A DNA stretch of 64,000 nucleotides, taken from positions 7,048,497 to 7,112,496 of the forward strand of contig NC_081387.1 in NCBI RefSeq assembly GCF_030684315.1. The letters run 5' to 3'. The position numbers and the translations under genes are program-made. This document shows, piece by piece, positions 22,722 through 31,984 of the stretch; positions within the stretch are counted from its first letter, which is position 1, and every line of letters starts with the position of its first letter. The notes under the pieces are model-generated. The model searched no databases, had not been told where the DNA came from, and worked only from the letters and a program-made list of their open reading frames with translations. This DNA is from Stegostoma tigrinum. Its lineage: Eukaryota.

Positions 22722-22997
22722 CTTTCCTTTCGAAATATTCTTTTCCAACCTCCAAATCCAACAGCAATTGCTCCAGAAATATTTGTTCCAGATGTGTTTT
22801 CCAATACTTGGTCCAGGATGCATCAGAATTCCATTTCTCAGTTGTCATTACTGCATGGTGGTTGGTTGCAATCCATCTCATTCTCTCTGCCTCTAAACTA
22901 ATATAGTCTTTTCTGTCATACCCAAAACGCATTGATATCTTAACGGAGCCATCTTCAACTATTTCAGCACAACTTATCCATTAAAACAGGTGAATTC
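22722..22997 (-). pseudogene. MHC class I alpha2 exon with premature stop
   Basis: GIHLF*WISCAEIVEDGSVKISMRFGYDRKDYISLEAERMRWIATNHHAVMTTEKWNSDASWTKYWKTHLEQIFLEQLLLDLEVGKEYFERK. YDxxDYI, W133 and TxxKW motifs; 276 nt; donor G|GTATGT. Confidence 0.95.
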
Positions 22998-25900
22998 CTT
23001 TCAGTGATGAACAAAGGGATCAAAAGCCAACATTTAATGATACATCACATGCTGTCTGAACAGAGACAACAGGCATCTGATTTCAGGTAGAAATGGGGGC
23101 TTAGAGTCAGAGCCTAATCAGAAAAGGAAGAGGATTCAGTTGAAAATGTATACCAATTGTTGCGGCTGTGAATTCAGTCTGAACTTTCTAAATCATTTGA
23201 ACCTGATGAGTGGTCAGAAGTCAAACAAAATGGTTTTTGGGAAATTAAGCATCCAACCAGGATTCAGTGGTCTTAGAAAGGGCTAGTAAACTAATGACAA
23301 GACTTGATTCCCATACATTAATAGCAAACAACAAATTAATTCCCCAGAAACTAATAACTTGAATTAATAGACAACATATTAATCCCAGGATGCTCATGTG
23401 TGTTGGTTTCAGCAAATTTACAACAGTTAACTGCCAGTCAGTGGTTAAGTCCCAGATGTTAAAAATAAAGCATTAATTTATAACTTGCTCATAATAGAAG
23501 ATAAATTTCCAGCTACCAACAGGAATTAATTCCTACCACATTGACAACACAAGTCCCCAACATACAAACAACAGAAGTTTACTGCCAGCACATTATGGGT
23601 GGTTTTAATTTACAAGATGCTAACTCAAACATGTGAAAGTTAGAAGTTATTCCCAACTGCTAAAGAATATATTTAATTTAAAGTCACTACGAGCAATGTG
23701 ATGAAATGTCTCGTTATTTCCAGCTTTTTCTTTGCACCAAGCAAGCCAGCAAACTACGTCAATTTCTACTGATAGACATTTCCAAGTGATGCTAGGTGCC
23801 AACAAAAGGGAAGGGCTCACCATAAGACTGAAACAGATTACTCAGCACAAAGAATTGCAGTTTAAAATTTTCAGTAGCTGACTGTAAGGTCAGTGTGAAG
23901 GTGACAGAGAGTGGATGGCATATTAGGAGTCCTGATTTTTAGCTGCCCTACAGCAAAGGCAACTGAACTACAGGATTTCCCTGTAGTTGACACATGGAGT
24001 TAAGTTCCAAGAGTAGATGGGTGTCTGTGTTGTTGGAACCACAGCCAAGTTCTCAAAGACGTTAGGCAACTAAGGTGTCGCCATCAGGGCTCAGGAAAAG
24101 TGATGGTGGTTCACAAGTAACCAGCTGTGACCAATAGGTCAGTATGGCTGAGTGTGGTCATTGAAAGATCGCCAAGAGTAGCTGCTTGATGCAACTCAGC
24201 AAGATGGGAGAGCTCAAGAAAAATGCAAAAGAAAGATTCAGCTTGGTAAAGCCGGCCTGAATTGTGGCAGTGAATCAGTACTGGAGTGCTGTTTGCAGAG
24301 TCTGGGGCAGCACAGACCCAGGCAGGAGGATGACCAGCTCTAACAAGAGCAGTCATTGAGCCAGTCCATGACAGACCACAAGGCATAGGATCAGAAATAG
24401 TCAATTGGCCCTAACGACTGCTTTGCCATTTGATCACTGCTGCCAATAAGTGACTTAAGAGTGGATTTGAAGACCAGACTAGACCAGCAAAAACAAAGAA
24501 CTGTAAACGCTTGTGAAGTTCAGTGAGATTTATTGACTGACCGCTTGTAAACTTAACCGCTGGAGGATTTGCTGAGAAAGCTGTAGGGTCTGCCTTGATC
24601 GCATTTGACACATAATTAAAATCATTTGAAAAGCTGGCAATGAGCTGCCTTTTTGATCCCTGCAGTCCAGGTGCTGTAGGTACACCCTCAGTGCCAGAGA
24701 AATTCCAGGATTTTTGACTCAACAACAGAAAATGATATGCTGATTTTTTTCCAAGTCAGGACGGTGGCTGGCTTGTAGGAGAACTTCCAAGGTGGCAGTG
24801 TTCCGCTGATTATCTCTTGCCCTTGTCCTTCAAGATTGAAGTGATTACAGATTTCAAAGGTGATATCTGAAGATCTTGGAATGCTTGTTCAGAGAACAGC
24901 AGATGGCAGGACTGATTAATACAGCAGTTAAAAAGGCACATGTGATCCTTGCCTTGATTAGTCATGGAACAGATCGGAAGAACAAGGAGGTCATGTTGGA
25001 ACAGCACTGAACTTTGGTGAGGCCACACCTGGAACACTATGCATTCTTTTGATCACCATCTTCCATGTCATGGAGCTTCCATGTATCTGCTGTCCTTGAC
25101 CTTCTAGATGGTAAAGGATGGGGTATTGAAAGATGTTGTCTAAAGGATCTTTGGTGAATTTCTGCAGTGCATCTTTGCAGATTATACACACTGCTGCTAC
25201 TAAGCATCGGGGAAGAGGTAGTGTTTGTTTGCGGATACCATGCCAATAAAGTAGAATGCTTTGGCCTGGATAATTTCAACACTCTTGATTTTGGAGCTGC
25301 GCACACCCAGTAAAGTGGGGAGTATTCCATCACACTTCTCACTATGCCACATGGATGGGGCCAGGTTTTCTGGAGTCAGGATGAGAAGTACTCCACTGGC
25401 TTATGGGCCCCAGCCTTTTCACTCGAGGCTCCCCTATCTCACATCCAGCTTCCCTCTCTTACTGCTGAAGCCCAGTCAAAATTGCACGTTTAACTGCATA
25501 CCAATTCATTGGTATATGAAAACCACATGTGATAACATCAGTGCTTGGAACGCTGCGTTCCTGAATGAGGACACACGTAGTTTGTCTGCAATACCTACTT
25601 TTTGACATGTGCATGGGTTGCCAGATCACAGCCTATTACTCAAAGTTAGCACGTTACTTCTGTGTATTCGAAGTAAGTTTTACATGCATTGTCAATTGAA
25701 ATACTGATGCAACTTGTATGGCACTATAAAGGAAGAGTCGCTACAGTCCAGAGGACCATAGGGCACAGAAACACAAATGGTAGTGAGCTTAACGCATCTC
25801 AGTCAAGGGACAAATTTGAGAAACTGGGACCTATATAGTAACCTAAGCCAGTGTGGAACATGAACTCTTGGCATCACAAATCCAGCATCCAGACAACTGA

Positions 25901-26280
25901 GCCGAGTAAAGCCACCAAGTACAGCGTGGGCCCTAAATAACTAAACATACAAAAGAAAAATGTTAACTGCATTACACTACACAAAAGAACTATTAGAATA
26001 ATCTCTGTACAACTTTCAGGAAGAGAGTTGCATCCATTTTTACTCACAGTTATACCCTTACAATCTTCAAATCACAACGTAGAACCATCCTTCAACGCAT
26101 GTGAAAGCCTTCTGCCCAGCAGGCATGGTGTTAACTCAGTTTCCTTTTGGAAAATTTGCTAGCATTCACACAATCCTATTGTCTTTGGTTAAGCTTTTTT
26201 AGACTTAAGACAATAAGTTAAGACACACATAAAATTCAGTCCACTAAACATGGTTTACCTGACCTCATATCTTGAGGGTA

Positions 26281-30214: not shown

Positions 30215-31110
30215 ATTTTGTGTGGTTAGTAAGTTTGCAAATGAAACCAAAATTGCAGATGCAGTTAGTACAACAGAATCCTGATCAGATGGGCCAATGT
30301 ACTGAGGAGAGGCAAATGGAGTTTAAACTCAGATAAATGTCAGGTGTTGCATTTTGGAAAGGCAAGTCCCAGCAAAACTTATACACTGAATGATAAGGTC
30401 ATGGGGAGTGTTACTGAACAAAAAGACTTTGCAGGTTAATAGTTCCATGAAACTGGAGTCACAGGTCGATAGGACAGTGAAGGAGGCATTTGGTATGCTT
30501 GCCTTTATCGATCAGTGCATGGAGAAGTTGGGAGTCATATTGCAGCTGTTCAGGACATTGGTTAGGCCACCATTGGAAAATTGTGTATAATTCTGGTCTC
30601 CCTGCTATAGGAAGGATGTTGTGAAACTTGAAAGGGTCCAGAAAAGATTTACAAGGATGCTGCCAGGGACAGAACGTGAGAGCTAAAGGGAGAGGCTAAA
30701 TAGGCCCGGGCTGTTTTCCCTGGAGCGTCAGAAGCTGAGGGGTGACTTTACAGAGGTTAATAAAATCATGAGGGACTTAGATATGGTAAGTAGACAAGGT
30801 CTTTTTGTAAATGGGGTGGGGGAGTCCTGAGACGACAGAGGCTTAAGGTGAGACATGAAAGATGTAAAAAGGGAGCTAAGGAGCATCTTATTCACACAGA
30901 GGGTGGTGGTATGTACAGAATGAGCTGCCAGAGGAAGTGGAGGAGGCTGGTAAAATTACAACATTTAAGAGGCATCTGGATGTGTGTATGAGTAGGAAGA
31001 GTTTAGAGGGATAAGGACCAAATTCTGGCAAATAGGGCTAGATTAATGTAAGGTATCTAATTGGCATAGTAGAGTTGGATCAAACGGTCTGTTTCCATGC
31101 TGGACATCTC
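30215..31110 (+). mobile_element. CR1 LINE 3' end
   Basis: VKEAFGMLAFI..LFRTLVRPPLENCV; same family as 475-1300. Confidence 0.85.
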
Positions 31111-31723
31111 CTGGACCCTAAAATCATTTAGTTGCTGGGTCATTAAATTATGTTGTTGGACAGTGGATGCAGATACACAGAGTATGGACTAGATTATGGA
31201 AATGCAGCCCAAATTAAGTCTAAGGAATTTGATAATGCTTTGAGCTTCAGATTTGTAGTTGACAAGTAACATTTAATAAAAAATAAATTTAAAATTCCAA
31301 ACAAGCTAGCTGGGGTAAACACTTACCAACATGAATTTGCAAACAGGAATAGGAGGCGGCCATTAGGCCCCTCTACCCTTCCCTAACAATTAATAAAAGG
31401 TGGTGGTTGACCAGATTACAATCTTAAATCCATGCTAACCGATGACAACATTTCATTCTCAATCCATACAAATGCCTCAGATGTCTTAAAAATATTCAAG
31501 GACTCTGCTTTCACTACCTCATCAAGAAGAGAGTTCCAAAGCTCTCGTATTCATGATGAGAAGTTTCTTCTCATCTCGGTTTCAAATTTGACCACTTATT
31601 TATAACAGTAAGCCCTAATTCTGAGATCTTCCATGAGAAGTCTGCAGTATAAATGTTGTTGACTGTATTGTACATTGTATCTCGCTGTCATTCATTCAAA
31701 AAGGACAGTCAGCTTGATCTTAC

Positions 31724-31984
31724 CAGATGTCTGGTTCATCCCCTTCATTATTGTATGGAGACTCTCCTTTGCTATAGTTGAATGTGAATTTGCGATATCA
31801 GTGACAGCATTCTAAGTTTCCGTACCAAAAGAGTTTTCCATGAACTTCTGCCTGGGAATCATTCGCCGGATCTTTGTATCATGATAATTAAGTTGAATTC
31901 CTTTCACAATTGCAATATTCATCACATCAGGAAAGTCATCAATGCCAGAGACTGCCATGTACAGCACTGTCAGTGAATTAGAGA
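31724..31984 (-). pseudogene. MHC class I alpha1 exon with premature stop
   Basis: Acceptor ttttgttttatag. Translation (V)SNSLTVLYMAVSGIDDFPDVMNIAIVKGIQLNYHDTKIRRMIPRQKFMENSFGTET*NAVTDIANSHSTIAKESLHTIMKGMNQTS with the conserved N86 glycosylation sequon NQT. Donor G|GTAAG; 261 nt. Confidence 0.93.

What the first reader, a model, noticed from the sequence alone, without database searches (positions are those of the whole stretch)
22722..31984. Half-conserved ligand groove: N-terminal anchors lost, C-terminal anchors kept
Y7, Y59, Y159 and Y171 are V, T, H and D; W167 is Q; position 84 is G. T143, K146, W147 and Y123 are retained. Groove positions are aromatic or hydrophobic (W97, M114, F116, W152, Y155, W156). 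Inference: a non-classical molecule for N-terminally extended or modified peptides, lipopeptides or non-peptide ligands. It may belong to the multigene shark UEA-type lineage or an undescribed sublineage; the lineage cannot be assigned by eye.
Basis: partly seen in the sequence, partly recalled or inferred. Interest (0 to 1): 0.7.

Follow-up and report, generated by a model that had tools for sequence, protein, structure and literature searches.

The report
Broken shark nonclassical MHC I gene
This is a stop-codon-broken copy of a large shark-only family of nonclassical MHC class I genes, most likely the published UEA lineage; its lopsided groove is partly a family trait and partly likely decay, so it is ordinary, though what the intact relatives bind is still open.

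Summary
It has seven exons (34200 to 9209, minus strand) and four in-frame stops, two of them in the groove domains (W60, Q96). The Q96 stop is in 4 of 4 runs laid and the W60 stop in 3 of 4, all from one sample.

It nests among 71 open-frame relatives from 13 shark species. Grouping with classical UAA is rejected (p-AU 3e-7). The family is most likely UEA.

The asymmetry is real at family level: 26% of N-terminal versus 71% of C-terminal anchor positions are kept. This copy exaggerates it. Y7, Y159 and W167 are lost family-wide, but relatives mostly keep Y/F59 (61 of 71) and Y171 (48 of 71). T59, Q167 and D171 occur in 0 of 71.

T143 and K146 are no more conserved than the alpha2 background, and the reportedly lipid-binding UGA also keeps K146/W147, so C-terminal peptide anchoring is not shown.

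Verdict: a new, dead member of a known lineage. The ligand of the intact relatives is likely hydrophobic and is untested.

The parts
34149..34200 (-). Exon 1, leader peptide (ATG at 34200), open, GT donor
   Evidence: tblastn of relatives; sequence
31724..31984 (-). Exon 2, alpha1 domain; V7, T59, G84, N86 sequon
31812..31814 (-). In-frame stop at W60 (W in 71 of 71 relatives); one run holds a sister alpha1 copy that is open here
22722..22997 (-). Exon 3, alpha2 domain; W97, A101, M114, F116, R120, Y123, T143, K146, W147, W152, Y155, W156, H159, F164, Q167, D171
   Evidence: Pfam MHC_I E 6e-11
22981..22983 (-). In-frame stop at Q96 (Q in 71 of 71 relatives)
   Evidence: contigs without any difference span it in 4 of 4 runs
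22342..22620 (-). Exon 4, alpha3 Ig C1 domain, open, both cysteines present
   Evidence: Pfam C1-set E 3e-16
22107..22223 (-). Exon 5, connecting peptide and transmembrane segment; in-frame stop at 22110-22108 (R in 55 of 71 relatives)
11759..11791 (-). Exon 6, first cytoplasmic exon (33 nt); in-frame stop at 11774-11772 where relatives have the tail tyrosine; donor reads GC
   Evidence: second-best profile score in the window and the best on the gene's strand, in the right order, with an AG acceptor
9209..9240 (-). Exon 7, last coding exon with the natural stop

Best explanation
This is a seven-exon shark nonclassical MHC class I gene broken by four in-frame stops, most likely a pseudogene of the multigene UEA lineage that makes no working protein. 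Shown: the stops, the exon structure, its place inside a shark-only multigene family, and the family-wide loss of Y7, Y159, W167 and the alpha2 disulfide, with W147, W152, W156 and M114 nearly invariant. Inferred: it arose by local duplication and decayed (birth and death), and T59, Q167, D171 and R120 are likely products of relaxed selection. Inferred for the intact relatives: a glycosylated heavy chain that would pair with beta2-microglobulin, keeps the class I fold, and cannot hold a free peptide N-terminus in the classical way. It would most likely carry a hydrophobic ligand. My single best guess (about 30%) is a short lipopeptide, with the acyl chain in the remodelled A end and the peptide part against T143/K146/W147, as in chicken YF1*7.1.
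For: Stops. Contigs of 4 of 4 runs span the Q96 stop with no differing letter, and 3 of 4 agree on the W60 stop. Decay: 22 residues in alpha1-3 are seen in no relative, the most among 72 sequences (median 4.5); end branch 0.31 against 0.06-0.17 for its three nearest rows. Family: identity to 71 relatives has medians of 46/59/80% for alpha1/2/3, against 24-28/31-38/38-42% for four UAA. It sits in a 21-row family clade (92/98) and the AU test rejects grouping with five UAA/UAA-like rows (p 3e-7). UEA: all named family hits are sharks (13 species) and none is a ray or chimaera among 120 listed rows. There are up to 12 clusters per species. Members lie on a contig of the same length as UDA in three species. 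PMC10751288 describes a cluster of single-copy UDA and multicopy UEA (passages). Its nurse shark query matches the window at 74 of 92 residues in alpha3 and 51 of 92 in alpha2, counted by eye, and also lacks both alpha2 cysteines. Groove: mean hydropathy of 31 groove-facing positions is +0.09 against -0.34 to -1.47 for UAA-type and UDA; 3.8 charged residues against 5-9. Q96, G120, D122, N86 and T88 are present in 71 of 71. The model of an intact relative's alpha1-2 has pLDDT 93.6 and a class I fold. YF1*7.1 precedent: passages of PMC12212280.
Against: No sequence labelled UEA was available to me. The matching nurse shark query is labelled 'UCA' in the supplement, and 'UEA' occurs 0 times there, so the name rests on inference and on my recall of the UEA paper, which is not held. 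All four runs come from one sample, possibly the one assembled, so the stops may be polymorphic in the species. One run holds a close sister alpha1 copy that is open at W60 and still has T59, so T59 is older than that stop and may sit in a live gene. The careful mixture-model tree did not finish, one search used LG+G4, and no UBA, UFA or UGA sequence was in either tree. For the ligand: T143 and K146 are only at the 39th and 61st percentile of alpha2 conservation, nurse shark and skate UGA also keep K146/W147, and YF1*7.1 keeps Tyr7, unlike this family.
Confidence: 0.85

Rival explanations
1. The intact relatives bind free lipids or small hydrophobic molecules with no peptide part (CD1-, ZAG- or MR1-like), and K146/W147 are kept for structure or head-group contact.
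For: Hydrophobic, weakly charged groove. W147 is invariant along with W133, W156 and M114. UGA, reported as lipid binding from a personal communication in PMC12562908 (passage), keeps K146/W147. PMC2998441 proposes that YF1 Arg142 contacts a lipid head group (passage).
Against: T143, K146 and W147 are kept together in most members (52, 63 and 71 of 71), whereas the sister lineage UCA has lost all three. Bulky W97, W152 and W156 would leave little room for long chains (inference).
Confidence: 0.3
2. The intact relatives have a filled or collapsed groove, carry no ligand, and act as receptor ligands or binding platforms (like HFE, FcRn or MIC).
For: Nearly invariant bulky residues at 114, 152 and 156, and W97 in 51 of 71. 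The alpha2 disulfide is lost. HFE ties for first place in the wide fold search (Z 23.4, rmsd 2.1, 178 aligned). FcRn keeps W147.
Against: Groove-facing alpha1 positions vary between paralogs, as expected for ligand pockets. MR1, YF1 and classical fish class I fit the model as well or better (Z 24.6-25.0, rmsd 1.6-1.9).
Confidence: 0.22
3. The intact relatives bind peptides anchored at the C-terminus that run out of, or are modified at, the N-terminal end.
For: 89 of 345 N-terminal versus 197 of 276 C-terminal anchor positions are kept across 69 distinct relatives (summed). The loss of C101-C164 and W167 lies at the N-terminal end of the groove.
Against: R84 is kept in only 15 of 71. Y/F59 (61 of 71) and Y/F171 (50 of 71), which close that end in classical molecules, are mostly kept. 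The groove floor is hydrophobic.
Confidence: 0.15
4. The window copy is a null allele or recent breakage of a still-working locus, or belongs to a lineage distinct from UEA.
For: There are no frameshifts and the splice sites are intact except one GC donor. A sister alpha1 copy is open at W60. No annotated relative is above 69% identical over alpha1-3. No UEA-labelled sequence was in hand.
Against: Four separate stops and 22 private residues, including changes at invariant positions. It nests within the family next to sawshark, bamboo shark and zebra shark genes.
Confidence: 0.1

Closest known systems
Shark UEA lineage (Almeida et al. 2021, J Immunol 207:824; paper not held; title seen in a reference list, abstract content recalled)
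   Same: Shark-restricted, multigene, apparently on the MHC chromosome with UDA, sister to dogfish UCA, classical anchors largely lost, hydrophobic groove.
   Different: This copy has four in-frame stops and private changes (T59, R120, Q167, D171). I could not place it among the published sublineages.
Dogfish UCA (Squalus acanthias AAN78091; its alpha1-3 match the supplement's 'Sacanthias_UCA' by eye)
   Same: Lies on the family's side of the tree. Shares V7, W97, V101, F116, W152, W156 and lacks both alpha2 cysteines.
   Different: Only 16/31/46% identical to the window in alpha1/2/3. It has lost T143, K146 and W147.
Classical shark UAA (Triakis, Squalus; nurse shark structure 6LUP)
   Same: Fold, exon layout, N86 sequon, T143/K146/W147.
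   Different: UAA keeps Y7, Y59, R84, Y159, W167, Y171 and C101-C164 and has a polar groove. A common clade is rejected (p-AU 3e-7).
Chicken YF1*7.1 (lipopeptide presenter; PMC12212280 and PMC2998441, passages seen)
   Same: Functional analogue only. It is a multigene class I with a narrow hydrophobic groove. The acyl chain sits in the A' pocket and the peptide part touches Thr139/Arg142/Trp143 (my mapping: 143/146/147), and it has bulky Tyr149/Trp153 (152/156).
   Different: Keeps Tyr7. 28% identity to the intact relative's alpha1-2. Not an orthologue.
Shark UFA and UGA (PDB 8GM8, 9CH4)
   Same: Shark nonclassical class I, reported CD1-like lipid binders (PMC12562908, personal communication). 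UGA keeps K146/W147.
   Different: Single- or low-copy, keep the alpha2 cysteines, and are 17% and 29% identical to the intact relative's alpha1-2.

Membership tests
UEA (shark nonclassical class I) | Groups with published UEA sequences in a tree | tested here: inconclusive
   No UEA-labelled sequence was available. The nurse shark query labelled 'UCA' in the PMC10751288 supplement matches at 74 of 92 (alpha3) and 51 of 92 (alpha2) by eye but was not put in a tree.
UEA (shark nonclassical class I) | Multigene family | tested here: met
   71 clusters at 90% identity from 13 species, up to 12 per species.
UEA (shark nonclassical class I) | Found in sharks, not in rays or chimaeras (recalled; the paper's title calls it a shark lineage) | tested here: met
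   All named family hits among 120 listed rows in each are sharks. The search is word-based and listed no ray class I of any lineage, so absence is weaker than presence.
UEA (shark nonclassical class I) | MHC-linked, in the cluster with UDA | tested here: inconclusive
   Relatives share contig length with UDA in Chiloscyllium punctatum, Mustelus and Heterodontus, which is a proxy only. No neighbouring MHC gene was found in the 64 kb window and no genome is held.
UEA (shark nonclassical class I) | Classical peptide-terminus residues not conserved; hydrophobic groove; distant kin of UCA (recalled) | tested here: met
   Y7 0, Y159 14, W167 0, R84 15 of 71; hydropathy; UCA on the family's side of a 100/98 split, though on a long branch.
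Classical class Ia (UAA) | Y7, Y59, Y/R84, T143, K146, W147, Y159, Y171 conserved (PMC4364491) | tested here: not met
   The window keeps 3 of 8.
Classical class Ia (UAA) | Clusters with UAA alleles | tested here: not met
   AU test p 3e-7.
UDA | Single-copy lineage with nurse shark UDA | tested here: not met
   UDA forms its own 100/100 clade; 18-45% identity by domain.
UCA (dogfish) | Close to Squalus AAN78091 | tested here: not met
   16/31/46% identity against medians of 46/59/80% to the family. Only one UCA sequence was available.
Lipopeptide-presenting class I (works like YF1*7.1) | Binds N-acylated peptides | not testable with these tools
   Needs elution or a structure. The fold search ties YF1, MR1 and classical molecules within 1 Z unit.
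Functional class I gene | Open frame through alpha1-alpha3 and the transmembrane segment | tested here: not met
   Four in-frame stops.

The most novel reading that the evidence does not exclude
The intact members of this lineage are the oldest lipopeptide-presenting class I family. They are disulfide-free alpha2 molecules that bury an acyl chain in a rebuilt A end and read a short peptide through the kept T143/K146/W147 set, with each paralog tuned to a different ligand. This would be an independent shark parallel to chicken YF1, and the sister alpha1 copy with T59 may belong to a live gene with an even more open N-terminal end.
Probability: 0.25. Interest if true: 0.65.

Novelty: new member of a known kind. 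Interest (0 to 1): 0.17.

Why it matters
The locus itself matters little: it is a dead copy in a family known for expansion. It shows birth and death in the shark class Ib cluster and warns against reading ligand chemistry from a pseudogene. The useful by-product is the family profile, which names the residues to test in a live paralog: loss of Y7, Y159, W167 and the alpha2 disulfide, with near-invariant W147, W152, W156 and M114. No solved structure of this family turned up in my PDB searches (best identity in the lists 36%), whereas UFA and UGA have structures. The profile may already be in the UEA paper, which I could not read.

Tried and rejected
No whole genome is held, so synteny and paralog counts in this species could not be read. 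No second class I gene was found in the window.

The two J Immunol papers on UDA and UEA are not held. Searches listed no full text that describes UEA groove residues. This says nothing about what is in print outside the library.

No RNA holder was listed for the locus; this is no evidence on expression.

The fold search with the full-length model did not discriminate. With the alpha1-2 model, MR1, YF1 and classical molecules tie, and HFE, UGA and ZAG tie among representatives. I could not measure groove width or volume because model coordinates are not returned.

The careful 84-row mixture-model tree did not finish; the quick tree was read instead.

Rejected: assembly error as the source of the two groove-domain stops; classical UAA allele; an undescribed lineage (it nests in the family). 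A weak tblastn hit at 32468-32415 was not pursued.

Rows dropped before the counts: family hits P0074-P0107, P0004, P0119 and P0121 (lower-scoring; mostly partial, exon-skipping or mis-predicted forms by length and coverage) and the double-length P0151 and P0152 found later.

Earlier scan findings: none.
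Full report
Observation. The finding spans the alpha1 exon (31984-31724) and the alpha2 exon (22997-22722) of a minus-strand MHC class I gene, both with canonical splice ends. The eight canonical anchors are Y7, Y59, Y/R84, T143, K146, W147, Y159 and Y171 (PMC4364491, passages seen). The window keeps 3 of 8.

Whole gene. Relatives located a leader exon (34200-34149), alpha3 (22620-22342), a transmembrane exon (22223-22107) and two cytoplasmic exons (11791-11759 and 9240-9209). There is no frameshift, but there are four in-frame stops: W60, Q96, the end of the transmembrane exon, and the tail tyrosine in exon 6. 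W60 and Q96 are invariant in 71 of 71 relatives. No second class I gene lies in the window.

Are the stops real? Contigs from four runs of one sample were laid on 22000-34300. In 4 of 4 runs a contig with no differing letter spans the Q96 stop. In 3 of 4 the alpha1 contig agrees with the W60 stop. In the fourth (X3) the contig, with 18 differences and 4 gaps over 685 bases, is open at W60, and depth over alpha1 is 1.2 to 2 times that over alpha2. So a close second copy of the alpha1 region exists in the same animal, as allele or paralog. No difference is listed at codon 59, so that copy still has T59. The runs may be those the window was assembled from, so they rule out assembly error but not polymorphism. 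Exon 6 lay outside the stretch laid.

Family. The alpha2 exon, read with X at the stop, found three shark proteins at 64-66% identity. One of them retrieved 128 proteins, of which 120 were listed. I kept the 71 best near-full-length ones, from 13 shark species of several orders, up to 12 per species, with 69 distinct alpha1-2 sequences. Median identity of the window to them is 46, 59 and 80% for alpha1, 2 and 3. Against four UAA it is 24-28, 31-38 and 38-42%, against four UDA 18-23, 26-29 and 43-45%, and against dogfish UCA 16, 31 and 46%. A profile search listed no ray or chimaera member among 120 rows. In a 30-row alpha1-3 tree (LG+G4) the window lies in a 21-row family clade (92/98), in a 4-row group (95/92) with sawshark, bamboo shark and zebra shark genes. 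Forcing it with five UAA/UAA-like rows is rejected (p-AU 3e-7). The 84-row quick tree agrees (8-row group, SH-aLRT 92); its careful version did not finish. UBA, UFA and UGA were in neither tree.

Name. PMC10751288 (passages) places single-copy UDA and multicopy UEA in one MHC cluster, and PMC12562908 (passages) names UBA and UEA as the two expanded shark families. In the supplement of PMC10751288 (parts 4, 97 and 98 of 98 read, plus two term searches) a nurse shark query matches the window at 74 of 92 alpha3 and 51 of 92 alpha2 residues by eye, far better than the UBA, UDA, UFA or UGA queries. That query is labelled 'UCA', and 'UEA' does not occur in the file. I infer that it is their working label for UEA, because I recall the UEA abstract saying that UCA proper is confined to dogfish and that UEA is its distant multigene relative with poorly kept anchors and a hydrophobic groove. 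That paper is not held, so this is recall. Relatives share contig length with UDA in three species, a proxy for MHC linkage. UEA is about 90% likely.

What is lineage trait and what is decay. Counts of 71: Y7 0 (V 46); position 59 Y 29, F 32, T 0; Y159 14 (H 25); W167 0, Q 0; Y171 48, D 0; R84 15, Y84 0; T143 52; K146 63; W147 71; Y/F123 67. Among the seven nearest relatives: V7 7, Y59 7, H159 6, W167 0, Y171 4, T143 5, K146 7, W147 7. Summed over 69 distinct relatives, 89 of 345 N-terminal and 197 of 276 C-terminal anchor positions are kept, so the asymmetry is real. But only 4 of 69 lack all five N-terminal residues as the window does. The window has 22 residues seen in no relative, the most of 72 sequences (median 4.5), including G120R at an invariant glycine. 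T59, Q167 and D171 are therefore likely decay, with the caveat that T59 is shared with the sister copy that is open at W60.

Does the kept C-terminal set mean peptide binding? Not by itself. T143 and K146 sit at the 39th and 61st percentile of alpha2 conservation, and W147 is invariant along with W133, W156 and M114. Nurse shark and skate UGA keep K146/W147, and FcRn keeps W147. In favour of a role, UCA has lost all three while this family keeps them.

C101 is in 0 of 71 (V 67) and C164 in 5 of 71, and UCA lacks both. Both alpha3 cysteines, the N86 sequon, Q96, G120 and D122 are invariant, which suggests normal glycosylation and beta2-microglobulin pairing (inference from established class I structure). 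Over 31 groove-facing positions (my list, from general knowledge of HLA-A2) the family's mean hydropathy is +0.09 (range -0.59 to 1.0) with 3.8 charged residues. UAA-type and UDA score -0.34 to -1.47 with 5-9 charged residues. AlphaFold gives an intact relative's alpha1-2 a confident class I fold without the disulfide (pLDDT 93.6). MR1, YF1 and classical fish and chicken molecules tie as structural matches (Z 24.4-25.0), so the model does not pick a ligand class. UGA (29% identity, Z 23.4) and UFA (17%, Z 18.7) have solved structures; none from this family appeared.

Mechanism. The window copy would stop translating at the 58th codon of the mature chain and likely yields no protein (inference). 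For live relatives I commit to a hydrophobic ligand, and within that to a short lipopeptide (about 30%). In chicken YF1*7.1 the myristoyl chain fills the A' pocket and the peptide contacts Thr139, Arg142 and Trp143 (PMC12212280, passages; PMC2998441, passages), which is the half this family keeps. Against this, YF1 keeps Tyr7, and R84 is mostly lost here. The rivals are free lipid or small molecule (30%), a closed groove (22%) and N-terminally extended peptides (15%).

Verdict. This is a new but dead member of a known lineage, interest 0.17. The open question, the ligand of intact UEA, is real but is not raised by this locus. I could not check whether the primary paper already reports the anchor profile and the disulfide loss.

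Noticed in passing
window 30994-32286: A close second copy of the alpha1 region in the same sample: up to 18 differences in 685 bases, open at W60, still T59. Three of four runs also differ at the first base of the exon (31984), giving the family's usual Asp1. Allele or paralog is unresolved.
   Followed up: partly
relatives P0002-P0073 and dogfish UCA P0118: Family-wide loss of the alpha2 disulfide (C101 0 of 71, C164 5 of 71), shared with UCA.
   Followed up: yes
window 22621-22721 and 9241-11758, 11792-22106: The alpha2-alpha3 intron is only 101 bases, while the alpha1-alpha2 intron is 8.7 kb and the two short cytoplasmic exons lie 10 and 13 kb downstream of the transmembrane exon.
   Followed up: no
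P0108-P0111, P0113 and family members: UDA proteins and this family have nearly the same leader peptide although their ectodomains are about 35-38% identical. This suggests a shared or homogenised leader exon in the cluster, or gene models that borrow a neighbour's exon.
   Followed up: no
window 61495-62819, minus strand: Broken ORFs with ZCCHC3-type RNA-binding domains and zinc knuckles, likely a decayed retroelement ORF1.
   Followed up: partly
window 6827-8052 and 35560-36069: Near-identical repeat pieces (96-99.5%), including an inverted pair 6867-7288 / 7631-8052, with a weak GIY-YIG match below the Pfam cut-off and a 39-base tandem unit; likely a young Penelope-like element.
   Followed up: partly
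window 24877-31041: The alpha1-alpha2 intron is filled with high-copy repeats (summed contig depth in the thousands to tens of thousands), likely LINE and SINE remains.
   Followed up: no
P0125, P0151, P0152, P0153: Double-length annotated proteins (611-802 aa) in epaulette shark, Mustelus and catshark, likely read-through gene models joining tandem class Ib genes.
   Followed up: no
PMC10751288 supplement, file 10: The query set lists a 'UHA' class I lineage and a second nurse shark 'UAA-2'; UHA was not among the lineages named in the passages I read.
   Followed up: no
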